Positions 16,807 to 56,400 of a stretch of 64,000 bases of DNA are shown piece after piece. The first letter of the stretch is position 1. Every line of letters starts with the position of its first letter. The stretch is from Candidatus Falkowbacteria bacterium (GTDB lineage: Bacteria; Patescibacteriota; Patescibacteriia; UBA11705). Location of the stretch: assembly GCA_003518055.1 (NCBI GenBank), contig DOZJ01000006.1, forward strand, positions 43,837 to 107,836, written 5' to 3'. The position numbers were made by a program, and so were the translations under genes. The notes beneath the pieces were generated by a model. That model was not told the DNA's origin, did not search any database, and was given only the letters and a program-made list of their open reading frames with translations.

Positions 16807-17379
16807 TTATATAATCCATTTTATATCTTGTGGTCGGACGTTTTCTTGTTTGGCTAGTCGGAGTTCAATTTCTTTCATCAAGGCGATACGTTTTTCGCGG
16901 GTGAAAATCTGATCGGCGTTTTCTACCAGAAAGACACGTTTAAGGCCGAATTTAATTATATGATTCCAGCAGTTTTCACACGCCCACCAGTGGCCGAATA
17001 AATACAAGTCAGCGCCGGCCGGATCAGCGCCGAGCGCGATGGCGTCATCAATGGCCGCCACTTCGGCATGAGATGTCTGCTGGCATTCGTTCAGGCAAAG
17101 TTCATAGCCGGTGCCGGTCGGGCAGTTGTTTTTGTAGCGGGGGCATAATGGTACGAAGCGGCCGGCATTGGAACCGCGGCCAATGATTTTTTCTTCTTTG
17201 ACCAAAACCGCGCCGGTCGGCCACCATGAGCAGGCGACTTTGTCTTCGGCTGCTTGTTTGGCGGCAATCATAAAGGGATCGTCGAGCGGCACAAAGTGGA
17301 AAATTCGGCCGGTTGGTAAATATGGATATTCTACTGTTGCGGTGAACTTGGAGGGGGAATTTTGGTCAATAATTGCCAT
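16807..17379 (-). CDS. dCMP deaminase (cytidine/deoxycytidylate deaminase zinc-binding family)
   Basis: HAEVAAI ... WACENCW zinc-ligand motifs. Confidence 0.8.
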   Translation of the reverse strand: MAIIDQNSPSKFTATVEYPYLPTGRIFHFVPLDDPFMIAAKQAAEDKVACSWWPTGAVLVKEEKIIGRGSNAGRFVPLCPRYKNNCPTGTGYELCLNECQQTSHAEVAAIDDAIALGADPAGADLYLFGHWWACENCWNHIIKFGLKRVFLVENADQIFTREKRIALMKEIELRLAKQENVRPQDIKWII

Positions 17380-17414
17380 TGAGGTTGGAGAGGCTGTTAT
17401 TAGGGAGGTTGGAG

Positions 17415-18062
17415 TTAGGTTTTTTTTTTGAGTTGATCAAGATTACCGGATCGGAGAATATCAAGTTCAGCGTGCGAGTCCAGCTTGCTGGTTAGCCCGT
17501 ACGGCGTGGCGCTGTCATATTTTGAGGCGTCGAGTCCATGCATTTGGGCGTCTTCCGTGGACATATCGGTTTGCAGTTCGTGTAGAACCATTTGACACAG
17601 CCGTTCTCCGGGATAAATTTTCAAGACATGGTGAGATTGATTGGTAATCGGGATGGTCAGGTGGCCGGAGTAGTGGGGATTGACAACCCCGCTTTCAATC
17701 GCCAAGCCTCGGCGAGAGGCTGAACTTCTGGCGTGCAGGACGCCGCAGAGTTTGCCGCTCAGAGTGACCTTTTCCAAGCTGGAGGCGAGGATCATTTCGC
17801 CGGGGAGAATTTCAAAATATTGTTCGGGTTTTAATTTTACCAACTGGAAATTTTCGTGCGTAGTGGAATAATCCATATAATCGGCCACTACGGCGACGCG
17901 GCCTTTGTCGGTGAATTTCCAGATATAGGGAATGTAAAAACTCCAGCCGATGCGAAGATCGATGGACGCCGGCTGTAATTGATATTCATCCAATTCCGGT
18001 TCGATTTTCAGCTCTTGGGCGGTAATTTTTTGGAGAATGGCCGGCCGGGTTAAAATTGACAT
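17415..18062 (-). CDS. dcd: dCTP deaminase
   Basis: SIDLRIG, LHARSSASRRGL, GVVNPHYSGHLT motifs. Confidence 0.8.
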   Translation of the reverse strand: MSILTRPAILQKITAQELKIEPELDEYQLQPASIDLRIGWSFYIPYIWKFTDKGRVAVVADYMDYSTTHENFQLVKLKPEQYFEILPGEMILASSLEKVTLSGKLCGVLHARSSASRRGLAIESGVVNPHYSGHLTIPITNQSHHVLKIYPGERLCQMVLHELQTDMSTEDAQMHGLDASKYDSATPYGLTSKLDSHAELDILRSGNLDQLKKKT

Positions 18063-23287: not shown

Positions 23288-23479
23288 TTAAACGACCAAG
23301 CTGAGCAGGTATTGGAACAGCAAGTCGAGGCCACCGAGAAAAACGGCGACGCCCACGGATACGCTGATGACAATCAAGGTGTACTTGGTGGTTTCCTTTT
23401 TGGTCGGCCAAGTAACTTTGGTCATTTCAACTTTTGCTTCTCGAAGATAATTGAACAAACGGTTGTTTAGTACATTCAT
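23288..23479 (-). CDS. secE: preprotein translocase subunit SecE
   Basis: 63 aa, REAKVEMTKVTWPTKKET then single TM; classic position upstream of nusG. Confidence 0.8.
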   Translation of the reverse strand: MNVLNNRLFNYLREAKVEMTKVTWPTKKETTKYTLIVISVSVGVAVFLGGLDLLFQYLLSLVV

Positions 23480-23683
23480 ATTAAATAGTATCCGCGTGAA
23501 CTAAATGTTCAGCGGAGAAGCAAAAATAACGAAAACCAATGGTTTTGTAATGTTATTTTTTGCTTAAAATTAGGGATAAAATTATCTTAAAAAGCCCCAA
23601 AGGGCTAGTTTCAATATAATTATAGCATAAAATTATTTTCCCGCAAGAGTAATGGATAAAAATTGGGGATTGACAATGTCGGA

Positions 23684-23754
23684 TAATTTTGGCATGCTAT
23701 AGGGTTCAGCTGATCAGGCGGGACAGACCCATGCAATACCAAGGAGGAAGCAAG
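23684..23754 (+). promoter_or_regulatory. conserved ~70-nt leader element, copy A (TTTTGGCATGCTATAGGGTTCAGCTGATCAGGCGGGACAGACCCATGCAA...AAGGAGGAAG)
   Basis: ~85% identical to copy B at 24981-25050 although downstream proteins are unrelated; contains palindrome CTGATCAG. Confidence 0.55.
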
Positions 23755-24426
23755 ATGAGCGAGAAAAAGGTGGCATTAATCATTGGCGGAACCAGTGATA
23801 TCGGACAAGCGATTATAAAAGTTTTGGAGGTTGAGTATCAGATTTATTTTACTTATTTCAGTAATGATGAATTGGCGAAGAGGACCTCGGGCGTGGGTAT
23901 GCATTGCGATATCCAGAACATCCGGTCGATTCGGATGGTGTTTCGACAGTTCCCTAAGCTGGATCTGATGGTTACTTGCGCTTTTCCCTTTATTGAAAAT
24001 GATGTTTTGGAGTTTTCGAGTTATTTGGAAACTGAGCCATATCTTCGTGGTCATGTGGTGGCGGTTTGCGAAGCCGCCAAGAAAATGAACAGCGGCGGCA
24101 AGGTAATCAATCTTCTCGGGCAATGTGTTGATCGAGGGTTGGCCGGTGCTCCGTATTATGCGGCCGCGTATGCATATCTGCGGAATTTGGCCATGAGTAT
24201 TAACGCGAGTCATGGGCGAGCGGGTAGACTGTCGGTTCACGATATTCTTCTCGGACCGGTAAATACAAAACTGTGGCGAGGCGTGAGTAAGGAAGTTATG
24301 ACTCGCTATCGCAATCTGGTGGCGCGATTTATCGAGCCAAGGGAAGTGGCAGAAGCGGTGCTTTATATTGCTCGGTCAGAAATCGGTCCGACAACATTTA
24401 AACTTGATGCTTTTTACAGTTTATAA
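23755..24426 (+). CDS. short-chain dehydrogenase/reductase family protein (atypical, YxxxR instead of YxxxK)
   Basis: ALIIGGTSDIGQAI Rossmann motif; ATG 23755 behind AAGGAGGAAG RBS. Confidence 0.6.
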   Translation: MSEKKVALIIGGTSDIGQAIIKVLEVEYQIYFTYFSNDELAKRTSGVGMHCDIQNIRSIRMVFRQFPKLDLMVTCAFPFIENDVLEFSSYLETEPYLRGHVVAVCEAAKKMNSGGKVINLLGQCVDRGLAGAPYYAAAYAYLRNLAMSINASHGRAGRLSVHDILLGPVNTKLWRGVSKEVMTRYRNLVARFIEPREVAEAVLYIARSEIGPTTFKLDAFYSL

Positions 24427-24452
24427 CACTACCAGAAACAGGGGGGAACAAA

Positions 24453-24944
24453 ATGAAAAAGAGAGTGGATTATACTAATGGCAAAGAGGTCGGGGCGGTT
24501 TTGGACAAAGATTCGGGTAAGCTCGGAGCAATTGAAAATTTGACGAGATTAAATGAAAAAGTTGTGGTCATGCTTGGGTGGTATGCAAAATTTCTTTGCT
24601 TTTGTTCGTATACGGTAGTGCAGAAAATGGTTGAATTTGCTCATGATGCAGAAAAGGATATCCCGTATATTCAGCTAGACTTGTTATTTGCATTTGAAGA
24701 ATTCCGCAGTCAAGAACCCATTTTAGCCTCATATACTCGTAGCGAATTATGTGATTGGGCAGGAGAGGAAAAGTTCGTTAATGATTTGACACAGGTATTA
24801 AACGAGAATTATTTGGCCGATACCAGATTTCGAGTGCGGGTAATCTCGTGGATTAATAATACTGGTGGTTTGCTGAGGGTAAGTATTACAAAATGGAACG
24901 CTGAATCGCCGCTGGATTATTTGTCGATTGGCAATGTTTTTTGA
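24453..24944 (+). CDS. hypothetical protein
   Basis: 163-aa ORF, GGGGAACAAA RBS-like, no motif. Confidence 0.4.
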   Translation: MKKRVDYTNGKEVGAVLDKDSGKLGAIENLTRLNEKVVVMLGWYAKFLCFCSYTVVQKMVEFAHDAEKDIPYIQLDLLFAFEEFRSQEPILASYTRSELCDWAGEEKFVNDLTQVLNENYLADTRFRVRVISWINNTGGLLRVSITKWNAESPLDYLSIGNVF

Positions 24945-24980
24945 AAATAGATAATGGATAAAAGTTGGAAATAAACAAGG

Positions 24981-25050
24981 CTGAATAATTTTGGCATAGT
25001 AAAGGGTTCAGCTGATCAGGCGGGGCAGACCCATACAACAACAGGGAGGA
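24981..25050 (+). promoter_or_regulatory. conserved ~70-nt leader element, copy B
   Basis: TTTTGGCATAGTAAAGGGTTCAGCTGATCAGGCGGGGCAGACCCATACAA...AGGGAGGA. Confidence 0.55.
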
Positions 25051-25425
25051 ATGATCGTGACTGAAAAGCGGTCAGAGGTGTTGAATGTGGCGGTAAAGAC
25101 TAAAGACGCGGATGGACGAGTTAGGTCGTCGAAAATTTTGGGTTTGATTATTTATGATGATCGGACGGTGCAAGTTTGTGCTCCGATGGCAAATGATTGG
25201 CGCGTCATTTTGGGATTGGTTGGTTTGGCTAGACGGTTGGAGGGGCGATTGTCAGAGTATTATCTTGAAAAAGGTGAAACACTGAATACCCGGATCGTGT
25301 TGGAGGAAATGAAGCTGGTTGTTCGATCGGTGATGGCTTTGAGTCTGTTTAGTCTGTACCGTTTACCTGATGATGGTACGGCTGAGTTGGTTTTTGGGTT
25401 AGCTGATTGGCCAAATTTGTTTTAG
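25051..25425 (+). CDS. hypothetical protein behind duplicated conserved leader
   Basis: 124-aa ORF, GGGAGGA RBS; C-terminal ADWPNLF. Confidence 0.4.
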   Translation: MIVTEKRSEVLNVAVKTKDADGRVRSSKILGLIIYDDRTVQVCAPMANDWRVILGLVGLARRLEGRLSEYYLEKGETLNTRIVLEEMKLVVRSVMALSLFSLYRLPDDGTAELVFGLADWPNLF

Positions 25426-25533
25426 GTTTGAATCAAGAAATCTAAACTGAGTGAACCAACTCAGTTTTTTGATCCTTGCGTCTTTGGTAAAAATAATTTA
25501 AGATAAATAATTCCCACCAAGGCGGAGGAATCA

Positions 25534-25914
25534 ATGTCTTATCGAGATGATAGTCAGCTGGTGACCATTGAAAATCAAAATAGAGTCTTGTTTGCCATAT
25601 ATGCGAAAAAGAATAAACGAAATCAGGCTGAAATCACTCATATTGAAATGGCGGAATTTGAATCGGTTGATTGGTTGACTTGGACATCTCTTACAGAATT
25701 TATTAATCGAGTGAAGTCGGCTTTGGAGACGCAGGTGGCGAGCGCAGATCTTAATTTGGCGCTTGTGGTTGATGATGTCCTTCGACGTGCAGGGTTGCAG
25801 TTTCGCGTGAAGCGAGAAAGTAACGGATACAATTCATTTAATTGCCGCAATGGTTCTTGGTGGAAGGTTTTTTATCCCAAAACAGGATCGGAGGATGCCA
25901 ATGAAAATGTTTGA
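25534..25914 (+). CDS. hypothetical protein (C-terminal NGSWWK)
   Basis: 126-aa ORF; GGCGGAGGAATCA RBS. Confidence 0.35.
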   Translation: MSYRDDSQLVTIENQNRVLFAIYAKKNKRNQAEITHIEMAEFESVDWLTWTSLTEFINRVKSALETQVASADLNLALVVDDVLRRAGLQFRVKRESNGYNSFNCRNGSWWKVFYPKTGSEDANENV

Positions 25915-26323
25915 TCATGAACGTGGCATTTATATTCACTATGGCCGGCCATATTGCGGCGCGTCCGGGGTATCGAAAATTGAAATCGCGGTTGATCTTG
26001 TGGCAAAAAAATTGAAAATCGTTAAGATTAATATGGAAGCTTGTAGTGATGAATGTCGATCGAGGGTGGATGCTTGGTTGGAAGAATTGGCGGTGGGGGT
26101 GGTTGATTGGAGATTTTCCGTGGTGGTTGAATCGCTTGTTCGGCGGTTGAAAGCGATTGAGGTGTATTTCAGCCATCAGTTTTGTACCTTGGGTAGTGTT
26201 TTGTATGTTAATGCGACAGACCGGACAGCTGAACCTGATGATGAACACGAATGTGTGATTATCCTCAATGATATGTTGAACGATCCCTGGTGGAAACGGC
26301 TGCCGGAAGGGGGTGATCAATGA
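25895..26323 (+). CDS. hypothetical Cys-rich protein with C-terminal HECVIILNDMLNDPWWKR motif
   Basis: start after GGAGG RBS; tandem paralog of next gene by shared C-terminus. Confidence 0.45.
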   Translation: MPMKMFDHERGIYIHYGRPYCGASGVSKIEIAVDLVAKKLKIVKINMEACSDECRSRVDAWLEELAVGVVDWRFSVVVESLVRRLKAIEVYFSHQFCTLGSVLYVNATDRTAEPDDEHECVIILNDMLNDPWWKRLPEGGDQ

Positions 26324-26751
26324 CACGGTGTGAAATTGTGATTTCATTTGGCGCTCAGGGCAAGCGGTTGGGGCAGGAGTTGTCGGTATTTGACTTTATC
26401 GTTACGCGCAGTGCGAAATTTTTCGTTGATGGAAATGGCTGGACATTTGTTGAACTTGACGCGAATACCGGCAGTCAAGATAGCCGCAAAGAGAATCAAC
26501 GGGCATTGGAAATTCTGGTGAGAAAGCTGAATGAAAAATTCGGAGTAAATCCCGATGTTGGATTTGAAAATTTGGTGAAGCAGATCTGTGAGGAGATTGA
26601 TGAACGGTTTAATCCGCGGGCGGTCTTCATGCCGAATGCGTGTCCGCCTTTGTTTTCGTCTCGCGTCACGCCGCCTGATAGATGTACGCATTGCCTGATC
26701 ATGCTTAGCGATACACTGGCTGACCCATGGTGGCGTCCGTGGGCTGAGTAA
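26320..26751 (+). CDS. hypothetical Cys-rich protein with C-terminal THCLIMLSDTLADPWWRPW motif
   Basis: start overlaps previous stop (ATGA); shared 15-aa C-terminal motif. Confidence 0.45.
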   Translation: MTRCEIVISFGAQGKRLGQELSVFDFIVTRSAKFFVDGNGWTFVELDANTGSQDSRKENQRALEILVRKLNEKFGVNPDVGFENLVKQICEEIDERFNPRAVFMPNACPPLFSSRVTPPDRCTHCLIMLSDTLADPWWRPWAE

Positions 26752-26755
26752 AATA

Positions 26756-26780
26756 AACTGCTTAAAAGAGCAGTTTTTTT
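26756..26780 (+). terminator. intrinsic terminator (AACTGCT-TAAAAG-AGCAGTT-T7)
   Basis: hand-folded. Confidence 0.65.
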
Positions 26781-26787
26781 GTTATAA

Positions 26788-26816
26788 TTGACAAAATTGG
26801 ATATTGCTGGTATTAT
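26788..26816 (+). promoter_or_regulatory. sigma70-type promoter TTGACA-17-TATTAT
   Basis: near-perfect consensus, downstream AGGAGG RBS. Confidence 0.6.
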
Positions 26817-26850
26817 TTGAAGTCAAAACCTCAAACAACTAGGAGGCGGC

Positions 26851-27417
26851 ATGAAACCGAATCGAGGTGAAAGAGTCTTGGCACTGGCGTATGAGCTTTG
26901 GAAGTTGATGAGTCGAGAGACGGATGTTTGGGCTGAGGCTATTTTTGATTGTGAGGAGCAGCTAGCTGTTTATTTGTCAGAGTGTCTGCATTTTCAAGAG
27001 TTTGGACCAAACGTGATTACGGCGGGCTGGAAGAAGGTGGCTCAGGATGCGGGCTCGAATTATCAAATCCCCGATGAGATTTATTGTGATCCTCGGTTGC
27101 AGAGCGCGCTGGATAGTGAGGCTTCGAATGATTTTTACAATATTACGGTGGTTGATATTGATGGCATCAAACGGATGTTCAACGGTGATATTCCTTTTTT
27201 GGCTATTCTTCCGCTTGATGATGAAATCATGACCAGCCTGTGGGGGCTTTATTCCGGGGCTGAAATGCATGATTGTCTATTGGCGGCTTTGACTGAGTTC
27301 AATAAAAAGAATTCGTGTCTCCGAATTGAATTTGCTGTTTTTCACGGAGAAATGGATGACCAAGGTTGTTTGATTCTGGCGTTCAATGATCAGGCTCGGT
27401 GGTTTTATAAGATTTGA
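26851..27417 (+). CDS. hypothetical protein
   Basis: 188 aa behind perfect promoter 26788-26816 and AGGAGG RBS; ends ARWFYKI. Confidence 0.45.
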   Translation: MKPNRGERVLALAYELWKLMSRETDVWAEAIFDCEEQLAVYLSECLHFQEFGPNVITAGWKKVAQDAGSNYQIPDEIYCDPRLQSALDSEASNDFYNITVVDIDGIKRMFNGDIPFLAILPLDDEIMTSLWGLYSGAEMHDCLLAALTEFNKKNSCLRIEFAVFHGEMDDQGCLILAFNDQARWFYKI

Positions 27418-27442
27418 GAAGACAAAAAGTCTTCTTTTTTTT
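27418..27442 (+). terminator. intrinsic terminator (GAAGAC-AAAAA-GTCTTC-T8)
   Basis: hand-folded. Confidence 0.65.
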
Positions 27443-27446
27443 ATAA

Positions 27447-27474
27447 CAAAACAGCAGGTTAAAACCTGCTGTTT
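27447..27474 (-). terminator. gyrB terminator (9-bp stem ACAGCAGGT/ACCTGCTGT, loop TAAA)
   Basis: hand-folded; T-run on minus strand. Confidence 0.55.
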
Positions 27475-27485
27475 GGATGTTTGGT

Positions 27486-29573
27486 TTAGATGTCGAGATT
27501 TTTCACAGTTTTGGCGTGCGTTTGGATAAAGCGTTTGCGGGGCGCAACTTCCGAGCCCATCAGGATGTCGAAAATTTGATCGGCTTTTTCGCCGTCTTCG
27601 ACGGTGACTTTTTTGAGCACGCGATTGGCCGGATCCATGGTGGTGTTCCAGAGCTGATCCGGATTCATTTCGCCGAGACCTTTGTAGCGCTGGATGTTGA
27701 CGCCTTTGAGCGCTTCATCATGAATTTCAATGTGTTCAACCACGGAGTCATCAGAAGTTTCGGTTTCCGGCTCAGTCTCGTCGGTTTCAACCGGTTTTTT
27801 GGCTGGTGTTTCGTCTTTGATTTTTTTGAATTTTTCCAGCACCTGCTCCAATTCTTCGTCAGAGTAAACATACTCGGCCACTTTGCCTTTTTTGACTTGG
27901 TAGAGAGGCGGTTGAGCAATGTATAGATTGCCATGGTAAATCAGTGGGCTGAAATATCGGAAGAATAAAGTTAATAGTAGGGTTCGAATGTGAGCGCCGT
28001 CAACGTCGGCATCAGTCATAATAATGACCTTGCCGTAGCGGAGGTTTTCAATGTTCATCTGCTCGCCAAAATTGGTGCCAAGAGCAATAATGAGCGATTT
28101 AACTTCATTGTTGGCCAACATTTTGTCGATGCGGGCTTTTTCAATGTTGATGATTTTACCTCGAAGCGGAAGGATGGCTTGAAATTCTCGGTTGCGGCCT
28201 TGTTTGGCTGAGCCGCCGGCCGAGTCGCCCTCGACGATATACAATTCACACTTGTCAGGTTCTCGTGATGAGCAGTCAGCCAGTTTACCGGGGAGAGATA
28301 AACTTTCGAGTACGCCTTTGCGCAGAACCGTATCACGGGCCGCTCGGGACGCTTTGCGGGCTTGGGCGGCGAGGAGCGATTTCCCGATGATGGCTTCGGC
28401 GTCTTTGGGGTGTTCTTCCAAAAATATTTCCAGCGATTCGGTTACCAGCTGGTCAACGACGGGTTTTACTTCGGCGTTGCCGAGTTTGGCTTTGGTTTGG
28501 CCTTCGAATTGAGGATCTTTGACTTTGATCGAGATGATTGACGTCAAACCCTCACGGACGTCGTCGCCGGAGAGATTTTCATCTTTTTCTTTGAGTAGAT
28601 TGTGTTTGCGTGCGTAGGAATTGAGCGTTCGGGTCAAGGCGGTGCGGAAACCGGCCACGTGCGTGCCGCCTTCGGGGTTGATGATATTGTTGGTGAAGGC
28701 GATGACGGTTTCAGTGAATTCTTGAATATAGCGAATGGCCACTTCGACTTGAATATCGTCGGCGGTTTTGTCAACATAAAAAATATTGTCATGGGCCGGT
28801 TTGTCTTGGCGGTTCAAATGACGAACATATGATCCAATACCGCCTTCGAAGAAGAACGAGAATTGTTTTCTGTTTTGGGGATCTCTCAGATCAAAAGCCA
28901 TAATCCGTATACCCTTGGTAAGATAGGCTTGCTGGCGCAAATAAGTTAAAACTTTGTCCCAGCTGAATTCAGTAACAGTGAAAATAGTTTTGTCAGGTAA
29001 AAATGATACCGAAGTTCCGTTGGTAAAAGATTCTTCCGGCGCCCATGGGTCGATTTTTTTCGGTTTAGTTACCGGTCCGACAAGTTTGACTTTTTTTTGC
29101 GGGATGCCGATGTGAAATTCCTGCTCATAAATATTGCCGTCGCGGCGGATGACGGCTCTGGTCCAAGTGGATAAAGCATTGACCACGGATACGCCGACAC
29201 CATGGAGGCCGCCGGAAACTTTGTAGCCGCCTTGACCGAATTTACCGCCGGCGTGAAGTTTGGTCATAACCGTTTCCAAGGCTGAAACGCCGGTCGCTTT
29301 GTGTTTTTCGACCGGAATGCCGCGGCCATTGTCAATGACCGTGACTGAATTGTCCGAATTGATTTTGACCACGATGTCAGTACAAAAACCGGCCATGGCT
29401 TCATCGATGGAATTGTTGACAACTTCCCAAATTAAATGGTGCAGACCTTCGCTTGCCGTATTGCCGATATACATACCGGGCCGTTTGCGCACCGGATCCA
29501 AACCTTCAAGTACGGTAATTTGTTCAGCGCCGTATTCGTCGGCGCCTTTTTGGACGGATTTTTTTGGTGACAT
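27486..29573 (-). CDS. gyrB: DNA gyrase subunit B (type IIA topoisomerase ATPase subunit)
   Basis: GHKL ATPase, EGDSAGG, PLRGKILN, acidic C-terminal insert then TOPRIM/tail. Confidence 0.8.
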   Translation of the reverse strand: MSPKKSVQKGADEYGAEQITVLEGLDPVRKRPGMYIGNTASEGLHHLIWEVVNNSIDEAMAGFCTDIVVKINSDNSVTVIDNGRGIPVEKHKATGVSALETVMTKLHAGGKFGQGGYKVSGGLHGVGVSVVNALSTWTRAVIRRDGNIYEQEFHIGIPQKKVKLVGPVTKPKKIDPWAPEESFTNGTSVSFLPDKTIFTVTEFSWDKVLTYLRQQAYLTKGIRIMAFDLRDPQNRKQFSFFFEGGIGSYVRHLNRQDKPAHDNIFYVDKTADDIQVEVAIRYIQEFTETVIAFTNNIINPEGGTHVAGFRTALTRTLNSYARKHNLLKEKDENLSGDDVREGLTSIISIKVKDPQFEGQTKAKLGNAEVKPVVDQLVTESLEIFLEEHPKDAEAIIGKSLLAAQARKASRAARDTVLRKGVLESLSLPGKLADCSSREPDKCELYIVEGDSAGGSAKQGRNREFQAILPLRGKIINIEKARIDKMLANNEVKSLIIALGTNFGEQMNIENLRYGKVIIMTDADVDGAHIRTLLLTLFFRYFSPLIYHGNLYIAQPPLYQVKKGKVAEYVYSDEELEQVLEKFKKIKDETPAKKPVETDETEPETETSDDSVVEHIEIHDEALKGVNIQRYKGLGEMNPDQLWNTTMDPANRVLKKVTVEDGEKADQIFDILMGSEVAPRKRFIQTHAKTVKNLDI

Positions 29574-29728: not shown

Positions 29729-30733
29729 TTGATAATTGGAATGGGTAAAATTAAGACAAGAAACGACCGAGTAGAGAGAGAGCCGTCATCAGCTGGGCGG
29801 CGCGCAGAAAAATTAAGCGGCTATATTGACATGTTTGGTCAAAACAAAACAACAACTCCGCCGAAAACCGAATATACGCCGACCGGGACTCAGTTGTCGG
29901 CGGACAAATTAAAGTTCGGTTATTGGTTTGTGAAACATCGATTAATGATTCGACGGATTTTTATTTTGACTCTCGTAGGGGTGGATGCAATTTTGGTCAT
30001 TGCGGTTTTATATGGTTTCTTGAATTTGTTTTTGTTGTCTCGAGCGACAGAGCAAAGGATGGAGCTCGAGTTGTCAGCGCCCAAACTGAGTTATGACACG
30101 TTGTGGCAAATCAACCAGCCAATAGCGTTAGTTGTATCCGGCTCCGGGGCGTTTGTGAATGGGGCGGGCAAGTATGATTTTTGGGCGGAAGTGGAAAATA
30201 CCAATGCCAACTGGTATGCCAAAGAAGTTAAATATCATTTTGAAGCCGGGGAGACGGTGACCGCCACTAAAATTGATTATATTTTACCGGCCTCGGTTCA
30301 TTATATTCTTGATTTGGGTGCTGAGACGCAGGCGGCTCCAAATGCGGTTTTGGTGCTTGAAGACGTGAAGTGGGAGAAGGTGGCGGATTATGAAAAATTA
30401 CGAGATAAAATTTTAAATATAGAAGTACTGGAACCGAGGTTTATTCCAAGCGGTCAAAGCACATTGTCCGGCAATACCGGCGTCAGTCGAGTGGAGTTCA
30501 AAGCGAAAAACAGCAGCGCATATAATTTTTGGCAAATAGATTTTGTGGTGATGTTGATTCGAGGTAATTCCGCTGTCTTTATCAACAAAGTTCCGGTACG
30601 GGATTTTCGATCAGGGCAGGAAAAGAATATTTCATTTAATATTTATCAAAATTTGTCCGGCACCGGCGAGGTCAGAGTGCTGCCGGCCGTGGACATATTA
30701 AATCCGGAGAGTTTTCGCGGGTTTGATTTGTGA
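29729..30733 (+). CDS. hypothetical membrane-anchored protein
   Basis: single TM (ILTLVGVDAILVIAVLYGFLNLFLL) then ~230-aa extracytoplasmic region. Confidence 0.45.
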   Translation: MIIGMGKIKTRNDRVEREPSSAGRRAEKLSGYIDMFGQNKTTTPPKTEYTPTGTQLSADKLKFGYWFVKHRLMIRRIFILTLVGVDAILVIAVLYGFLNLFLLSRATEQRMELELSAPKLSYDTLWQINQPIALVVSGSGAFVNGAGKYDFWAEVENTNANWYAKEVKYHFEAGETVTATKIDYILPASVHYILDLGAETQAAPNAVLVLEDVKWEKVADYEKLRDKILNIEVLEPRFIPSGQSTLSGNTGVSRVEFKAKNSSAYNFWQIDFVVMLIRGNSAVFINKVPVRDFRSGQEKNISFNIYQNLSGTGEVRVLPAVDILNPESFRGFDL

Positions 30734-47443: not shown

Positions 47444-50400
47444 ATGGTGAAGATGAAAAAAAGGTTGGTGATATTAACCGGAATATTATTTATTTTTGTT
47501 TTTGGCGTAAGCTTTTTTTTAATTGATCGGACGGAGGCGTTGGTAACAAATGGCGCGAACGCGGTCAATCTGGTTGGACAGTATAGTGACGCGGGTGCGG
47601 TTGATTATACAAAGTCGGGAATCAATAATGGTCCGAATAATGAGGGGGTGAACACGCCGAATTTTTCGATTTTGGATGAACAAAATGATATATTTTTTGT
47701 TATTGATCAGGCGAATAATCGAGTGCTCGGTTATCAAGTGGATGCGGGGAATAATTTTGTTGATTATCAAGCCGATTATGTTCTCGGTCAGACGGATTTT
47801 AGCTCGGCGGATGAAGCAGATTCAGCCACGCAAGCAAATTTTTCCAATCCGAGCGGCTTGGCGATCGATCAGGGTGGCAGTAGGTTATTCGTGGCTGACG
47901 CCGGATTTAATCGAATTTTGATTTTTAATACTGACAGCATCGCGACCAACATGAATGCCAGTTTTGTTTTGGGGCAGGCTAATTTTACCGCGTCTGAGGC
48001 GGCTACGACGCAGGCCGGTTTGAGTTCACCGGAAGGGATTCATTTTGATGAAACTGATAACTTGTTGTATGTCGCGGATAAGAGCAATAACCGCGTTTTG
48101 ATTTACAGCGTGGCGGTCGGGACGGTTTCTAATGGTATGACTGCGTCGTATGTTTTGGGGCAGGCTAATTTTGTAAGTTCAGGGGCAGCGACTACTGCGG
48201 TGGGCTTGTCTGGTCCGACTGATGTTGATTACGCGAGTGATAATGATCATTTGTTTATCGCTGATGAAGGTAATAACCGAGTGATTATTCATAGTATTAC
48301 TCTGGAAGCTCCAATTGCTGACGGCCGGACGGCTGACAAGGTGTTTGGCCAGAGCAATTTTACATCTGGTGGCACTGGTAATGGGGCGGATCAGTTCAGT
48401 TCGCCATTTAGTGTGGCGGTTGATATTGCGAATGATCGGTTGTTTGTGACTGATCATGGTAACACGAGAATTCAATCTTTTGAGATTGCCACGATTGACA
48501 ACACGGAGAACGCGGCTGCTTCTTTGACTAGCATGACATCAAAAGCTCTGTTTTACATGGGTGTCAATGAATCGTTGGTGGTTGGTGAGCTTGAAGAACA
48601 TCGGGTGGCGAGGTATGACGCGGTGGTTTTGACACCGGGAGAATCGCCGGTAGAGGTTATTGGTCGAGTTGATGGCAGCGGCGATGATATTATTTCGGCT
48701 GATAATAACGCTAACAACGGCGCGAATAAATTGGGTTTGAGTGTTATTGGTGGAAGCGCGATTGATACCACCAATCATAGATTATTTGTCAGCGACACCA
48801 GTCATGATCGAGTTTTGGTTTATAATTTGACCGCTGGTGATATTTTGGCTGATTATACGCCGGATAATATTTTGGGCAAGACGGATTTTTATGACGCCAG
48901 CCAGACTGTTGTGACAGGATTGAATCCAGAGCAAAAAATTACTCAGCCCGGAGCTTTGGTTTATGAACAAGATACAAATTATTTATATGTGGCTGATAAT
49001 CGGCGGATTTTAGTCTTTAACGCGGCCAGTATTACTGACGGCGAGGCGGCGATAAATGTTTTGTGTCAAACCGCGTTCGCGAATATGGTTGACTCAACGG
49101 GGCAGGCTGAATGTTCGTCAGTCTCGGGTTTGGCCATAGATGAAACCAATAATCGATTGTTTGCTTCAGACGCCAGTGTCAGCCGCGTGATGGTTTTTGA
49201 CGTGGCGGAAATCGTTGATGGTGAAAACGCCACATATGTTTTGGGTCAGGGGCATTTCGGTGGTAGCGGAGTGGCTACGACTCAAGCAGGTTTGTCGGCG
49301 CCGAAAGGGTTGGCGTATGATTCAACGCAGGAGTATTTATTTGCCGCTGACAGCGGCAATAACCGAGTTGTTGTATATGATGTGGATACGATTTCCAATG
49401 GCGAAGACGCAGCCGCGGTTTTGGGGCAGGTTAACTATACTTCGTCCGGGGCTGATACGGATCGTAATTCTTTGAGTAATCCTTCGGCCGTTAGTGTCGA
49501 TACTAGCAATGGGCTGCTTCATGTGGCTGATACCACTAATAATCGGGTATTGTTTTTTGATGTTAATACTATTGCCAATGGTGAGTCGGCTCAATATGTT
49601 TTGGGCCAAAGTGGTTTTACAACCGCTACGGCCGCGACCACCCGGGCCGGTTTGAATACGCCGACAACGATTACTTTTAACTCTGGTTCGGATCGGATTT
49701 TGGTTGGAGATTCAGTCAATTATCGGATTATGGCGTTTGACGCGTCAATGACGACGAATAATGATCCAGCAACTCCGACTTTGAGCTCTCCGGCTGATTC
49801 AGCTGCCAGTGTGGCGATCAGACCGACGTGGCAGTTCTCGGCCACCGACGCTGATTCTGACGCCTTGTATTATGAATTGGAATTATCGGATACTACGACA
49901 TTTTATAATGTATTGTATCGGTTTGATTTGCGTGAAGATTATAAAGGATGGTCTCAGGTGTCAGCGTATGATTCTGGGGCTAGCGCGTCATTTATTCTGC
50001 CGGTCGGGGCAGCGCTTTCAACCAACACGACTTATTACTGGCGAGTGAGGGTGATTGACGTTCAGGGCGGCGTGTCGAGCTACAGCTCAGTGCGCAGTTT
50101 TACCACGGTGGATAATAGTACCACGGTTGATTACGCGGACACATTTGACAGCTCGGCTTATTTGGATACAACGAATACTACCGCGAAATATTATGATAAG
50201 GAAAATATTTCTATCCCCGCCACCTTTACTATAGGTTCGGCCGCAGCTATGTTCGGGGCGGGGGAAACAGTCGCGATGGTGGCTTTTGACGCGGATAATG
50301 ACGGTGATATCGATGTGGCGGTAAAAAATGAAGCTGGCACTACTAGTACCGTTTATATGAATAACGGCTCCGGAGTTTTTAGCGGCGGTGATACGCTCAA

Positions 50401-53400
50401 CGATTCAGTGGAGTCGGACAGGGCTTATATGGAATTTTTGTTCGCGGCCGATGTGGAGCTTGATGGTGATTTGGATATATTGGATCGTGACGGTTATATA
50501 TATACAAATGACGGCAGCGGTAATTTTACGGCGACAGACGGTCCTGATACTGGCGCGATTGGTGATTTTAATAATGATGGCTATATTGACGTGGTGGAGC
50601 CGAAGGCTGGTGGTGAGACAAAATTCATTTATATTAATGACGGCGAGGGTAATTTTACGGCGCTGAGTCCCAATCCCTTCGCGGATATTTCGGCGGACGT
50701 GATAAGTGATGCGTATGTTTTTGATATTGATCGCGACGGTTGGCTTGATATTGTCACGAATAATCAGAGCGGAACCAGCCGATTGTTTTTGAATGATGGG
50801 GATTTGACTTTTACTCAGAGTACACCGTGGGCAGCGGCAAATCTTACAAGGGTGGAGTTTGCGGATTTTGACGGCGACGGAGACATTGATTTGTTTGGAT
50901 TGCATCAGGGAATTGGTAAGGGTGTGTGGTTTAATGATGGCACAGGGTTGTTTTCGTCAAGAAATGCGGTTTCGACTGATTGTTATTTCCAAAATTTACA
51001 TTCGGTGGACTTGGAGGGTGACGGTGATCAAGATGTTTTGTGCGCGAGCGGAACCGCTACGAATTATTATTTGAGAAACAAAGGAAATGGAACATTTGAA
51101 ACTCAGGTGGCGGCTTTTGGGTCCAGCGGCACCTCAACTATCATTACCGCAGACGTTGATGGCGACGGAGATCAGGATGTTTTGGTTGGTAATGGTGATG
51201 GTGGTGAGAACCCGGTGGTCAATATTCAAAATTATTTATACAAAACAAGCGCGAATAGAATAATCTCGGCGACAGCTTTGGATGCGGATACAAATGTCAG
51301 GGCGGCTTTTGATTCAGATAATGACGGTGATGTTGATTTGTTTGCGACCGAGACGGAAAATGATTCAGGGCGTTTGTGGATCAATGATGGCGACCAGTCG
51401 TATACCGAACAAACGGGGTTTTCGGATTATGTATCCACGTTAGAGGCCGCGGATGTGGATGGTGATGGAGATCTGGATATGGTAGAGGGGCTTAATGGTT
51501 TTAGTGATAAATTGTGGCTTAATAACGGCTCCAATTCATTTACCAATATGGGGACGTTGTTTGGCGCCAATGATTATAACGCCACAGTAATCAAATCCGG
51601 AGATGTGGATAATGATGATGATATTGATTTCCTCTTTGTGTATGAATCTCAAATTCCAGAGATTTGTTTAAATGATGGCACCGGGTTGGTTTATACTTGT
51701 TCTAACGTGGATACATCAAGTTCGGATACCCGGACAGGGGCGGATTTTGGCGATGTGAATAAAGACGGTGTATTGGATTTGGTTATTAATTATGAATCAA
51801 ATGTAGTTAAGGTCTATACCGGTGATGGTGATGGCACATTCACCAGTTCGGCGACAATTTCATCGGATAATGGTCGTCTGGATTTGGGTGATTTGGATAA
51901 TGACGGGGATTTGGATTTTTTGGTTGGCACCGGCACGCCCGGAATGACAGCGTATTTGAACAACGGCAGCGGTAGTTTTGAATCCGGAGTTTCGATCACA
52001 ACGTGCGGCAACCGCGGATATTCTTTGGTTGATATGAATCGTGATGGCAAATTGGACATCTTGATCGCGTGCAATTCGGGGAATTCTCAACTGTGGGAGA
52101 ACCACGGCTATATGAGTTTTGTGAAACAGGCGTCATTGCTGGCTGACGGCGGCACAGTTAAATATTTTGTCTCAGCTGATTATGATCTTGATGGGGATAT
52201 GGATGTTTGGTCGGTTCGAGATGAGGCGGGCGCGGAAAACGGCTATCGTTTTGATCAAAAACAAACATATACGGCCAGTACGGAGTATTTGGTTTATTCG
52301 GGGACGATTGACACGGCGGTGGCGGCGAATACGTTCAAATCTGCAATTTTGTCTTCTGATGATTATACTCCCAGCGGAGCGAGCATTTTGTATTATATGG
52401 CCACTCAAGGGGCTGATTATCAATGGCTTGTAAGAAACGTAGGGACGACAGCTAATTTGTACGCCACGGCAGTCTATGGCTCCGTTGATGAGGCGGCTTA
52501 TGGCGATGTGGTCGGATCATCAGGGGTTTATTACAGTACGGCGGATACCGGAGCGACTTGGTCGAATACGAATTTTGGGATTACTGAGACGATTTTTGAT
52601 ATTATTGCGGTAGTTGAGGATGCGCCTTTATTTGTCGGGGCGAGTGGTTTGGTTTATGACGCCGGTTCAGTCACGGAAACTTGTTTGTCTGGAGAAGTTC
52701 GGATTACTGGTAATAATTTAAATGATTTATCAAATTATGTGTCGGGTGAAACGACCAAGGCGTACGCGGTTGGATCCGCTGGCACGGCTATTGGAATCGA
52801 TTTGTCCGGTTATCCAACGATTGCGTGTTCGGCCCTGACTACCGGCGTGGCAACCAATTTGAACGGAGTCGATATTATTGCGGGTGATCAGACAGATATT
52901 GTGACTGTTGGTGATCGGGTTGATGGCGGCAATGGTTTGATTCTGACGTCGACTGATAATGGTGCCAATTGGACGGTCCGAGCCAGTGGAGTGGCTCAAA
53001 ATTTGAATGCAGTTACGGCCGATACGGCGTCCGGTTTGATGATTGCTGTTGGCGATGGTGGTACAATAATCCGATCCACCGATTCCGGAGTGAACTGGAC
53101 AGGCGTGACTTCTGGTACGGCAGAAAATATCAATGATGTTATATTTAAATTTGAAGATTCAACAGAAGTTTGGGCGGCCGCTGATAACGATAAAGTTTTA
53201 TTGAGTACTGATTCAGGCGTAACTTGGACTGTAATCAGCACCTTATCCGGCGTCGATTGGTATGCCGTGGCTGAAAAAGACGGAGCGGTGTTTGTGGCCG
53301 GAGAGGCCGGCAAGATGATTGTCTATGATGATTACGCTATTTCATGGGAGGGACCGATTGTGAACGGTAATAATTTGAATTTTGGCGATGCTGGAACCAT

Positions 53401-56400
53401 CTTGCAGTGGAAGGCGGTCATGACAACAACCAATGTGAATAATCCGCCGTTAATCAGGGCGATGACCATAGATTACAATACAACAGTGGTGGGCGGTTCA
53501 AGCCAGCCAGCCACACCGGATGAGGAACCGGTCCAAACAGCCCCGACCGCTCCGGCGGTTGGCAGCGCGGTGGTTCTGTCGGCTGATTCGATTCGATGGA
53601 CATTTACCGATACGTCAAATAATGAAACCGGGTTTCGACTCTATGATGAAAACGGAGTTTTGATCAATCAGGTGGCGACAGCGAATTTGAGTTTTATTTT
53701 GGAAGAAACTTTGACACCGAATACCAGATATAATCGGTTTGTCACTTCATATAATGATAGTGGGGAGAGCGAAAGGGTTGATTTGGGCGTGTTTTATACT
53801 CTATCAGCTCAACCGGTGATAAATAATATATACGTGACATCTGACACTTCGGTAGCGATGGAGCTCGGTGAAAACGGCAATTCGGCTGATACTTTATATG
53901 CGATTTATGAAACCGTTACCAATCAATGGGTGCAAATAAACGGCAAGTTAGGAACTGGACGATTTGATCGAACATATGCTTCTTGGGTGGATAATGGGGT
54001 TGTGCCGATTGTTGATCTGATGAATGGTCAGGAATATGTTTTTTCGGTGGTGGCCAAAAATAGCGCCAATCAAGATTCTCAATATTCAAATTCATTTACG
54101 ATAAAAGTGACCAGACCCATCGGGGCTAATGTGGTAGCAACGAAAAAGGTGGGTATAAACTCGGCGGACGGCGATAATTTTGCTCAGGGAATTTTCTTTG
54201 GTACGCCGGTATACGCTTACGGCGGCCGAGCGCAATTGATCAAGACGTTGCCGTTCTTTTCCGAGGTAGCCAATGGTTATTTGGTTGGGGCAATTATCTT
54301 TTTGATAATCTTTATTATCGGTTTGATTTTTAACTCAGCTGATAAATGTGCTTGGTCTGAACGGCTTAGCCGGTTTAGACATACGCCAAAAATTATTTTT
54401 AGCGATTGGCGGTCAAAGCGCGGCGATGATGTTTATGAAATATTAAACGGTCAGAGTGAACCAAAGCTTGGAGACAAATACAAGAAACATCATCGATTGT
54501 ATCGATATACTGGCTTGACGATGACCTGTCTTGTGGTGGGAGTGATTTTGAAAGTGGTGATTGCCGGTTTGATTTTGGTTTTGCTTTATACTAATTTCGG
54601 TGTTCAAGCTTTTACCAATCAAAGTGGAGAGCCGGTGTTTTCAGGTGATGAATTGGTGTATCACATTGAATATGTTAATAACGGTCAGGCGGCAGCGGAA
54701 AATTTGGTGATTACGGATAACCTGCCTCAAGGAACTTCATATATAGTTGGAAGCGTAAATCTTAACGGCCTAGGTCAAACTGATACTGTCGGTGATGATA
54801 GCTGTTCGGCGGTGGCGGGGCATATTGAGTGCCGGGTCGTTTCTCTCGGAGCCAGTGGATCCGGATATATGGAATTCAAGGCCTTGGTGACGGGTGCGAT
54901 TGATGAGGCGGTGATTAATTTCGCTTCAGTTAATTATACTGGATTAGCTTCGCCTCGATCGTCAAATTCAGTCACCAATGTAATTGCCGAGATGCCGATT
55001 GCCGAATGCGCGGATGGAGTTGATAATGACGGTGATAACTTGGTGGATTATCCCCTTGATTATGGTTGCGTGGATGAGAGTGACACCAGTGAGAATTCGG
55101 ATATATTTATTGATCAGGGTCAGGTGGTTGATGTCAGCCTTACCGGAGATTGGAGATATTTCAATATGATGGAAACGGCGACCGCCAGATTTATTCATCG
55201 AAGCGCTTCACACCAAGTAACTCTCATGAATGCCGATAAGGTTGGCAATAAAGTCACATTAATGGTTCAAAGTGCTCCGATAACTGTGAATGTGGCGACT
55301 GGAGGCAATGTTCAGGTCGATACCGATGCTAATGGGGTAAATGATCTTGGTTTGACAGTCTTGGCAGTGATTAGCGAGGATCAAGCGGTGGTTGGATTAC
55401 AAACCATTACCGAACAAGTGTATCAATGCAACGATGGATTGGATAATGATAGTGATGGATTGATTGATTTTGGTGCTGATCTCGGCTGCTCGTCCGCAAC
55501 AGATAATGTTGAATATACCGCCCCTGTGATTCCAGAAGATGTGCCGGAAGAAATACCGGAAGAAATTCCGGAAGAAATACCAGAGGAAACTCCGGATGAA
55601 ACCACGGATAGTACGACTGAGTCCAGCGGTGGTGTTTCTGAATGTAATGATTTGGTCGATAACGATGGTGATGGATTGATCGATTATCCGACTGACGGCG
55701 GCTGTTCAAACGCGTCTGATACCAGCGAGGTTGATGAATTAATTCCAGATAACGTAATTGATACAATTGAAGATTCCCTTGATGATATTAACACGCAGAT
55801 TGATGATTTGAATCGGAGACTTGAGGAGTCAGATTCAGTAACTGAAACAGTTGCTTTGAGTATTGAGAAAACGACAAAACAAATACAAATGATTTCGGTT
55901 GAGACAGCTCAAACCGTGGTGCAGTCAGTGCAGTTTGTCAATGAAAAAGTCTTGAATAATCCGGCGGTAGAATCCGCGACGGCCAAAGCGGCGGCGCCGA
56001 CCATGATAACTTTTACGGCTTTAGGTATAGCTAATGTGGCCACGGCGACTGCCACAGCCGGAGCTGGAGCAGCCAGCGGGTTTGGCGTTCTGACTTATTT
56101 GCAGTATTTTGCAGTTCAGCCGCTGCTCCTCTTCACGCGGAAAAAACGCGAGCGTTGGGGGGTCGTGTATGACGCGATTACCAAACGGCCGGTGCCTTTG
56201 GCGATTGTTAGAATATATGACAAGAATACAGGACGGATTATCGGTACCAAGGTGTCGGATCAGAGTGGTCGTTATCAGTTTATAGTTGATTCGGGTGAGT
56301 ATTATATTGAAATATCCAAAGATCAATATCGATTCCCGTCAGAAATTTTGTACGGGCAGGAGCAGGATGAGAAATATTACGGCTTGTATCACGGTCAAAC

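What the first reader, a model, noticed from the sequence alone, without database searches (positions are those of the whole stretch)
25534..26751. Tandem small Cys-rich proteins sharing a C-terminal H-C-[VL]-I-[IM]-L-[NS]-D-[MT]-L-[NA]-D-P-W-W motif
A shared C-terminal signature across an otherwise unrelated gene run, which may be a targeting or docking motif.

Genes 25895-26323 and 26320-26751 have unrelated N-terminal regions but an almost identical 15-residue C-terminus ending in DPWW(K/R). Their coding sequences overlap by 4 nt.

The preceding gene ends NGSWWK. Other island members end in aromatic tails: ADWPNLF, ARWFYKI and IGNVF.

A shared C-terminal Trp-rich tail on otherwise unrelated small cytosolic proteins is reminiscent of either:
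- a secretion or targeting signal;
- a docking motif for a common partner, as in modular toxin or effector families.

I do not recognise this motif as a described family.
Basis: seen in the sequence. Interest (0 to 1): 0.55.

Follow-up and report, generated by a model that had tools for sequence, protein, structure and literature searches.

The report
Fast-evolving paralog pair sharing a Trp-Trp end
The shared "…DPWW" ending is real, but it is the best-conserved strand-and-turn of one small, undescribed protein domain that was duplicated in tandem in a few Candidatus Falkowbacteria genomes; nothing here shows it to be a portable targeting tag on unrelated proteins.

Summary
**Observation.** Confirmed. 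Genes B (25901-26323) and C (26320-26751) overlap by 4 nt (ATGA). Both carry C-x-I-x-L-x-D-x-L-x-D-P-W-W-[KR] near the C-terminus.

**Interpretation.** "Otherwise unrelated" does not hold.
- B and C are ancient tandem paralogs: BLASTP E 1e-7 over 60 aa, profile-profile probability 94.8% over 88 columns, and the same predicted topology (three strands, two helices, two strands).
- The motif is the last strand, a turn and a short WW helix inside the fold.

**Distribution.** Searches of billions of proteins found six members (three B-type, three C-type) in three Falkowbacteria lineages.
- They always lie as an adjacent B-then-C pair in a variable island between secE-nusG and gyrB.
- One B ortholog carries about 110 extra residues after the motif, so the motif need not be terminal.
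- Family-wide it reduces to [CS]-x-I-x-h-x-D-x5-W-W-[KRQ].

**Rate of change.** The pair is 22-41% identical between genomes, against 80-93% for NusG and GyrB.

**Known families.** No significant match in Pfam, NCBIfam, PHROGs, PADLOC, PDB sequences, or Foldseek against PDB and BFVD.

**Gene A.** Its "SWWK" lies 15 residues from the end. Homology to B/C is undetectable, but "WWK" recurs in another genome's first gene, which leaves a weak docking-motif reading open.

**Most likely.** A structural or interface element of a translationally coupled B-C hetero-oligomer of unknown cellular role. Interest is low to moderate.

The parts
25534..25914 (+). Gene A, 126 aa, acidic and soluble. It is the first gene of the A-B-C operon. 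WWK lies at aa 109-111 (nt 25858-25866) and is followed by 15 residues.
   Evidence: No detectable homology to B/C or to the genes in the same position in L007 and L010.
25901..26323 (+). Gene B (P0002), 140 aa, with an alternative ATG at 25895. It is the B-type member of the family and overlaps A by 14 nt.
   Evidence: Orthologs are P0006 and P0005. AF2 model: pLDDT 76.3, pTM 0.77, three strands, two helices, two strands.
26252..26296 (+). Motif in B, CVIILNDMLNDPWWK (aa 118-132). It forms predicted strand b5 (117-125), a turn and a short helix at WWKR (130-133).
26320..26751 (+). Gene C (P0001), 143 aa, the C-type member. Its ATG overlaps B's TGA (ATGA), which implies translational coupling.
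   Evidence: Orthologs are P0003 (41% identity) and P0004 (31%). AF2 model: pLDDT 61.8, pTM 0.59, same topology as B.
26692..26736 (+). Motif in C, CLIMLSDTLADPWWR (aa 125-139). It is preceded by the C-type-specific CxxC (C122, C125).
25444..25511 (+). Hairpin plus T-run that closes gene g3 (25444-25467), followed by promoter-like hexamers (25469-25511) upstream of A.
   Evidence: (consensus scan only).
26755..26776 (+). Terminator-like hairpin plus T-run that ends the A-B-C operon.

Best explanation
B and C are two members of a small, previously undescribed protein family of about 140 aa, seen so far only in three lineages of Candidatus Falkowbacteria (Candidate Phyla Radiation).

**Origin.** An ancestral gene was duplicated in tandem before these lineages split. 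Both copies have since been kept as an adjacent B-then-C pair, translationally coupled in two of the three genomes, in a gene-content-variable island between secE-nusG-rplKA and gyrB.

**What the motif is.** The "C-terminal signature" is the domain's slowest-evolving piece. It comprises the last beta strand ([CS]-x-I-x-h-x-D), a five-residue turn, and a Trp-Trp-[K/R/Q] element that starts a short helix.

**Inferred mechanism.** The two Trp residues act as a hydrophobic staple that closes the strand/helix sandwich, forms the subunit interface of a B-C hetero-oligomer, or does both. The rest of the protein diverges very quickly.
- The C-type copy adds a conserved CxxC directly before the strand and a PPLFS loop. 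This hints at a metal or redox site that B lacks.
- The cellular role is not shown. Rapid divergence, acidity, lineage restriction and the variable island point to an accessory, possibly conflict-related function rather than housekeeping.

**Shown:** paralogy, synteny, motif conservation at protein level, and absence from known families.
**Inferred:** hetero-oligomer, structural role of WW, and any cellular role.
For: **Paralogy**
- BLASTP B versus C: E 1e-7.
- B versus P0003: 132 aa aligned, E 3e-7.
- hhalign of C-type against B-type profiles: probability 94.8%, E 5e-8, 88 columns.
- Same predicted secondary-structure order in both AF2 models.

**Family size**
- The exhaustive HMMER search of 1.84 billion representatives gave 4 proteins.
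- The word-index searches of 5.8 billion gave P0001-P0006 and nothing else.
- Genome and metagenome scans found only the same three lineages.

**Synteny and gene order**
- The arrangement secE-nusG | island | gyrB, with B-type directly before C-type, holds in all three genomes.
- The overlap is 4 nt in the window and 8 nt in L010.

**Motif as the conserved core**
- Four of the five invariant non-Met columns of the six-sequence alignment lie in it: I, D, W and W.
- Codons differ where residues agree.

**Motif lies inside the fold**
- It corresponds to strand b5 plus a short helix. Block pLDDT is 83/77 in B and 72/68 in C, at or above each model's mean.
- It is internal in P0005, where WW is at aa 139 of 253.

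**Fast evolution**
- C is 41%/31% and B 25%/22% identical between genomes. NusG is 93%/84% and GyrB 84%/80%.

**Other properties**
- The proteins are soluble and acidic, with no hydrophobic segment.
- The residue after WW is K/R in both B and C of two genomes and Q in both of the third. With only three genomes this is a hint of a shared contact, no more.
Against: - The AF2 models rest on only six sequences. The C model has low confidence (pLDDT 61.8), and I could not inspect coordinates, so burial of the Trp pair is not shown.
- No B-C complex prediction or co-variation analysis was possible.
- In L007 the B and C genes are 148 nt apart, so coupling is not universal.
- The window's B motif (DMLNDPWW) resembles the C-type consensus more than its own orthologs do (DSEQNIWW, DNKEKTWW). 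A purely vertical history does not predict this.
- WWK also occurs near or at the end of two non-homologous upstream genes: window A, and L007 6729-7061, which ends ADWWK. This fits a short linear motif better than a fold element.
Confidence: 0.6

Rival explanations
1. Short linear docking or targeting motif. WW[KRQ] after a short strand would be a portable signal that brings A, B and C to a common partner, an export route or an assembly site.
For: - WW[KRQ] is the only element invariant in all six family members.
- It also appears in window gene A (SWWK) and at the extreme end of the unrelated first gene of the L007 operon (ADWWK).
- Neither of those genes shows detectable homology to B/C or to the other.
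- WW is rare in this genome. By my own rough, post hoc estimate from the rate, about 0.13 of the ten non-B/C island proteins should carry WW in the last 30 residues; two do, and both are followed by K.
Against: - The full motif occurs only on homologous proteins.
- It is predicted to be ordered.
- It is internal in P0005.
- The third genome's upstream gene has MWPDK, not WW.
- Back-translated motif scans of genome, metagenome and viral collections found no unrelated carrier.
- No signal peptide or hydrophobic segment is present.
- No secretion or partner gene lies in the island.
Confidence: 0.15
2. Concerted evolution. The near-identity of the 15 residues in this genome's B and C would reflect an old partial gene conversion between the tandem paralogs, rather than, or in addition to, functional constraint.
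For: The window's B motif matches the C-type consensus (D-x-L-x-D-P-W-W), whereas B orthologs have DSEQNIWW and DNKEKTWW.
Against: - Six of seven degenerate codons encoding identical residues differ between B and C.
- No DNA repeat is detected between the two genes.
- Any conversion would therefore be old, and selection would still be needed to hold the residues.
- The core I, D and WW positions are invariant in all six proteins regardless.
Confidence: 0.15
3. The motif is part of a known metal-binding module (zinc ribbon or CxxC knuckle) or another described domain.
For: CxxC lies immediately before the strand in all three C-type proteins.
Against: - There is only one CxxC. P0003 has just two Cys in total.
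- B-types have one or no Cys at these positions.
- No Pfam, NCBIfam or PDB match was found.
- Foldseek gave nothing with E below 0.06 and no TM-score above 0.35.
Confidence: 0.04
4. The ORFs are not genes: chance ORFs, or the long antisense ORF 25838-26347 is the real gene.
For: A 169-aa ORF lies antisense to B.
Against: - Orthologs with conserved length, order and motif exist in two other genomes, with in-frame indels.
- Those loci have no long antisense ORF.
- Shine-Dalgarno sequences precede A, B and C.
Confidence: 0.01

Closest known systems
Lineage-specific, fast-evolving tandem paralog families of unknown function (DUF-type orphan families common in Candidate Phyla Radiation genomes; own knowledge)
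   Same: - Restricted to a narrow clade.
- No match to curated families.
- Tandem duplication.
- Only a short core is conserved.
- Located in a gene-content-variable spot between conserved operons.
   Different: This pair has been retained in fixed order in all three genomes, is translationally coupled in two of them, and has an unusually sharp Trp-Trp core. That suggests a defined two-subunit unit rather than a loose gene-family expansion.
EsxA/EsxB-type WXG100 pairs (type VII secretion substrates; own knowledge; analogy only)
   Same: Two small paralogous proteins encoded side by side and co-translated. They are thought of as a heterodimer and have a conserved Trp-containing motif near a turn and a C-terminal recognition element.
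   Different: - WXG100 proteins are helical hairpins of about 100 aa with a central W-x-G, and they need an EssC/EccC ATPase.
- B and C are predicted to mix strands and helices, have no W-x-G, and no secretion gene is nearby.
RNase H-like / ASKHA three-strand-plus-helix folds (top but non-significant Foldseek hits)
   Same: They begin with a three-stranded meander followed by a helix. Hsp70 nucleotide-binding domains lead both PDB searches; RuvC, integrase and RNase H chains appear lower in the B-model list, and a phage terminase and a Holliday-junction resolvase in the BFVD list.
   Different: - E is at least 0.06, probability at most 0.25 and TM-score at most 0.22 for these hits.
- Both helices precede strand 4.
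- The strand-1 acidic residue is not conserved: D/N/H in B-types and F/S in C-types.
C-terminal aromatic beta-signal of outer-membrane proteins, and C-terminal sorting signals (LPXTG, PEP-CTERM, T9SS CTD; own knowledge)
   Same: A terminal strand that ends in aromatic residues.
   Different: - Those signals need an N-terminal signal peptide, and for sorting signals a hydrophobic C-terminal segment. None is present.
- The aromatic tails of g7 are not conserved in its homologs.

Membership tests
Zinc ribbon / four-ligand CxxC metal site | Two CxxC/CxxH pairs conserved across members | tested here: not met
   C-types have one CxxC only, and P0003 has 2 Cys in total. B-types have one or no Cys at these positions.
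Zinc ribbon / four-ligand CxxC metal site | Match to a curated profile | tested here: not met
   No Pfam or NCBIfam hit reached its curated cut-off, and no Zn-binding family appears even at E up to 1, for any of the six members.
RNase H-like / ASKHA fold | Significant structural superposition with b1-b2-b3-a1-b4-a2-b5 order | tested here: not met
RNase H-like / ASKHA fold | Conserved acidic residue or DxG on strand 1 | tested here: not met
   The position is D/N/H in B-types and F/S in C-types.
WXG100 / type VII substrates | Helical hairpin of about 100 aa with a central WxG | tested here: not met
   The predicted fold has five strands and two helices, and there is no WxG.
WXG100 / type VII substrates | FtsK/SpoIIIE-type ATPase (EssC) encoded nearby | tested here: not met
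   No such Pfam family is among the genes within about 10 kb in any of the three genomes.
Known anti-phage defence or phage protein families | Profile match in PADLOC or PHROGs | tested here: not met
   PADLOC gave 0 hits. PHROGs gave only E of 0.06 or more. tblastn against phage genomes gave no match, and the IMG/VR scan found none.
C-terminal sorting or secretion signals (LPXTG, PEP-CTERM, T9SS CTD, OMP beta-signal) | N-terminal signal peptide and/or hydrophobic C-terminal segment | tested here: not met
   The maximum 19-residue Kyte-Doolittle mean is 1.25 or less in B and C and in their 144-aa orthologs (1.74 in the 253-aa L007 B-type, which includes its extra C-terminal half). No member has a hydrophobic N- or C-terminus.
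Short linear docking motif shared by unrelated proteins | Same motif on non-homologous scaffolds, in a disordered region | tested here: inconclusive
   The full motif occurs only on homologs and is predicted to be ordered. The minimal WWK recurs in two non-homologous upstream genes.
Hetero-oligomer of tandem paralogs | Physical B-C interaction | not testable with these tools
   Only indirect evidence: conserved adjacency and order, and 4-nt and 8-nt overlaps. No multimer prediction was available.

The most novel reading that the evidence does not exclude
WW[K/R/Q] after a short strand is a genuine assembly or docking signal used by all three products of the A-B-C operon, including non-homologous first-gene products. 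It would bring them into a Falkowbacteria-specific, rapidly evolving complex, for example one involved in the interaction of these presumed episymbionts with hosts or phages. On this reading the motif, not the fold, is the unit under selection.
Probability: 0.12. Interest if true: 0.6.

Novelty: new member of a known kind. Interest (0 to 1): 0.25.

Why it matters
If the main reading holds, this is an ordinary case: an uncharacterised, clade-restricted domain family whose conserved core was mistaken for a portable tail. Its value is mostly as annotation.

- It defines a new small family of six proteins (B-type and C-type), with a clear signature and a fixed genomic address between secE-nusG and gyrB.
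- It shows that a gene pair next to core genes evolves several-fold faster than its neighbours while holding a Trp-Trp element fixed.
- It would become more interesting only if WW[KRQ] proved to be a recognition signal shared with non-homologous operon partners, or if the pair turned out to act in the host or phage interactions of Candidate Phyla Radiation bacteria, where almost nothing is known experimentally.

Tried and rejected
**Curated libraries**
- Rfam on the whole window and on 23400-27500: only a distant tRNA and noise.
- Pfam, NCBIfam, PHROGs and PADLOC on all island proteins and all six family members: only the SDR gene matches.

**Structure**
- PDB sequence profile search: best E 0.029, to designed proteins.
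- Foldseek of both models against PDB, and of the C model against BFVD: nothing significant.

**Homology of A, g2, g3, g7 and the L007/L010 extra genes to B/C**
- Rejected by BLASTP, hmmsearch with full and C-terminal profiles, hhalign and Smith-Waterman shuffles.
- My by-eye grouping of "A-type" proteins is not statistically supported. The best pair is A against the C-terminal half of P0005 (z 2.9, 6 of 300 shuffles).

**More family members**
- Two genome scans, one metagenome scan and one viral scan returned only the same three lineages. One attempt failed for lack of conserved columns.

**Other**
- Population variation for pN/pS: all copies of each lineage are 100% identical or differ by 1 nt.
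- Literature search for "DPWW": nothing relevant. A search on Falkowbacteria protein families was not informative.
- Structured-RNA reading of the duplicated 100-nt leaders: the folds are no better than shuffles.

Full report
**What is in the sequence**

The interval 25534-26751 holds three + strand ORFs:

| Gene | Coordinates | Length |
|---|---|---|
| A | 25534-25914 | 126 aa |
| B | 25895/25901-26323 | 142/140 aa |
| C | 26320-26751 | 143 aa |

- B's best start is the ATG at 25901. GGAGG lies 6 nt upstream, and the deposited protein is 140 aa.
- A and B overlap by 14 nt. B and C overlap by 4 nt (ATGA).
- The unit is bracketed by terminator-like hairpins at 25444-25467 and 26755-26776. Promoter-like hexamers lie at 25469-25511, so A-B-C reads as one operon.
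- Database names place the window in a Candidatus Falkowbacteria genome (Candidate Phyla Radiation), locus tags DF272_05415 and DF272_05420.

**The motif**

- B reads ...DDEHE-CVIILNDMLNDPWWK-RLPEGGDQ. C reads ...DRCTH-CLIMLSDTLADPWWR-PWAE.
- The similarity is not chance: BLASTP E 1e-7 over 60 residues and Smith-Waterman z 10.8, with 0 of 300 shuffles reaching the score.
- It is conserved as protein, not as DNA. Six of the seven identical residues with degenerate codons use different codons, and no DNA repeat links the two genes.
  - The motif is followed by 8 residues in B and 4 in C.
  - Gene A has SWWK at residues 108-111 of 126, not at its end.
  - Each protein has five Cys, which is not conserved in relatives.

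**B and C are paralogs, not unrelated proteins**

- A profile of B plus C, scored against 1.84 billion representative proteins, found only two further proteins, P0003 and P0004, both 144 aa.
- Word-index searches of 5.8 billion proteins added only P0005 and P0006.
- P0003 and P0004 align with C end to end, at 41% and 31% identity.
- P0006 and the first 148 residues or so of P0005 align with B end to end.
- B also aligns with the C-type P0003 over 132 residues (E 3e-7).
- The C-type and B-type profiles match with 94.8% probability over 88 columns.
- AlphaFold2 models give the same order of elements for both: three strands, two helices, two strands, then a short helix at WW.
  - The models rest on the six-sequence alignment.
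  - B scores pLDDT 76.3 and pTM 0.77; C scores pLDDT 61.8 and pTM 0.59.
- The motif is strand 5, a turn and the WW helix. Its block confidence is at or above each model's mean.

**Genomic setting in the three lineages**

The island sits in the same place in all three: divergent from secE-nusG-rplK-rplA and convergent with gyrB. Its content varies.

| Genome | Island content |
|---|---|
| Window | SDR-like, g2, g3, A, B, C, g7 |
| L007 / L016 (RIFOXYC2_FULL_36_12; L016 is 100% identical to L007 over the island) | 110-aa gene, B-type of 253-267 aa, C-type |
| L010 | 145-aa gene, B-type, C-type, 588-aa gene, two g7 homologs |

- The constant feature is a B-type gene directly before a C-type gene. 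The overlap is 4 nt in the window and 8 nt in L010; L007 has a 148-nt gap.
- In L007 the B-type protein continues for about 110 residues after the motif (WW at residue 139 of 253). The motif therefore does not need a free C-terminus.
- Across all six proteins the signature shrinks to [CS]-x-I-x-h-x-D-x5-W-W-[KRQ]. I, D, W and W are four of the five invariant non-Met columns.
- C-types add a conserved CxxC and a PPLFS loop that B-types lack.

**Rate of change**

Percent identity of the window protein to its counterpart:

| Protein | vs L010 | vs L007 |
|---|---|---|
| NusG | 93% | 84% |
| GyrB | 84% | 80% |
| L11 | 85% | 81% |
| C | 41% | 31% |
| B | 25% | 22% |

- The first-gene products cannot be aligned at all.
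- All island proteins of 110-267 aa except the L007 110-aa first-gene product (pI 9.2) and the SDR-like protein (pI 8.8) are acidic to near-neutral. None of them has a membrane-like segment.
- No population variation exists in the assemblies at hand, so selection cannot be measured directly.

**Comparison with known families**

- No significant match came from Pfam, NCBIfam, PHROGs, PADLOC, PDB sequences, phage genomes or IMG/VR.
- Foldseek against PDB and BFVD gave nothing below E 0.06, with TM-scores of 0.35 or less.
  - The top PDB hits are Hsp70 domains, with RuvC, integrase and RNase H chains lower in the B-model list; a terminase and a resolvase appear in the BFVD list.
  - These share only the initial strand meander, and the strand-1 acidic residue is not conserved.
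- A zinc ribbon is excluded because there is a single CxxC, absent from B-types.
- Sorting and secretion signals are excluded because hydrophobic segments are absent.
- The WXG100 comparison is an analogy only.

**What remains of the docking idea**

- Back-translated motif scans found the motif on no unrelated protein. Apart from A, B and C, no WW in the crude gene set of this window lies within 60 residues of a C-terminus.
- Two observations keep a weak version alive.
  - Window A carries SWWK, and the non-homologous first gene of the L007 operon ends in ADWWK. My own rough, post hoc estimate from the rate expects about 0.13 such WW tails among the ten non-B/C island proteins.
  - The residue after WW is K/R in both B and C of two genomes and Q in both of the third.
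- The window's B motif is also closer to the C-type consensus than its orthologs are. This could be an old gene conversion or ancestral retention.
- The aromatic tail of g7 is not conserved in its homologs. The tails of g2 and g3 have no orthologs to test against.

**Verdict**

- It is best read as the conserved last strand and Trp-Trp staple of a clade-restricted domain duplicated in tandem. It probably serves folding, B-C assembly or both (confidence about 0.6).
- It is less likely a portable targeting or docking tag (about 0.15).
- Cellular function remains unknown. An accessory, possibly conflict-related role is a low-confidence inference from the rate of change and the setting.

Noticed in passing
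window 23650-23749 and 24952-25051: A 100-nt direct repeat, 83% identical, lies immediately upstream of the SDR-like gene and of g3 and runs through the GGAGGAA ribosome-binding site. Both copies hold an identical 21-mer, GGGTTCAGCTGATCAGGCGGG, with overlapping palindromes TCAGCTGA and CTGATCAG, found nowhere else in the window. There is no Rfam match, and the folds are no better than shuffles. It looks like a duplicated promoter/operator leader rather than a structured RNA, and it is absent from L007 and L010.
   Followed up: partly
window 23755-24426: The SDR-like protein (223 aa) has weak Pfam adh_short hits. The usual YxxxK appears to read YAAAY and the catalytic Ser position is not obvious. 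This comparison with FabG is from memory and was not tested. It may be a non-catalytic or atypical SDR. It is present only in the window's version of the island.
   Followed up: no
window 25838-26347 (- strand): A 169-aa ORF lies antisense to gene B and is longer than B itself. The orthologous loci L007 and L010 have no comparable antisense ORF, so it is a chance ORF that could mislead gene callers.
   Followed up: yes
window 26851-27417; L010 10381-10938 and 11055-11591: g7 (188 aa, pI 4.4) belongs to a second orphan family. L010 has two tandem copies, about 31% identical to g7 and to each other. L007 has none; it has a 395-nt gap with no ORF of 60 aa or more before gyrB.
   Followed up: partly
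L007 7049/7091-7852: The B-type protein carries an extra C-terminal half of about 105 residues that ends ...SIDGSLWCDE. This half shows marginal similarity to window gene A (Smith-Waterman z 2.9, 6 of 300 shuffles). It may be a fusion of an A-like gene onto B.
   Followed up: partly
L010 8517-10283: A 588-aa basic (pI 8.95), Cys-rich (15 Cys) orphan protein is inserted after the C-type gene in this lineage only. It has no match in Pfam, NCBIfam, PADLOC or PHROGs.
   Followed up: partly
L010 347-1555 versus window 16807-18062: In L010, dCTP deaminase (DCD/dUTPase-like) and dCMP deaminase are called as one 402-aa protein. In the window and in L007 they are two adjacent genes of 215 and 190 aa. 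This is either a gene fusion or a gene-calling or frameshift difference.
   Followed up: no
window 29729-30733 and counterparts after gyrB: The roughly 330-aa protein downstream of gyrB is also fast-evolving: 67% and 37% identity between lineages, against 80-84% for GyrB. It has no Pfam hit on record.
   Followed up: no
window 47444-57064: A single ORF of 3206 aa on the + strand. Not examined.
   Followed up: no
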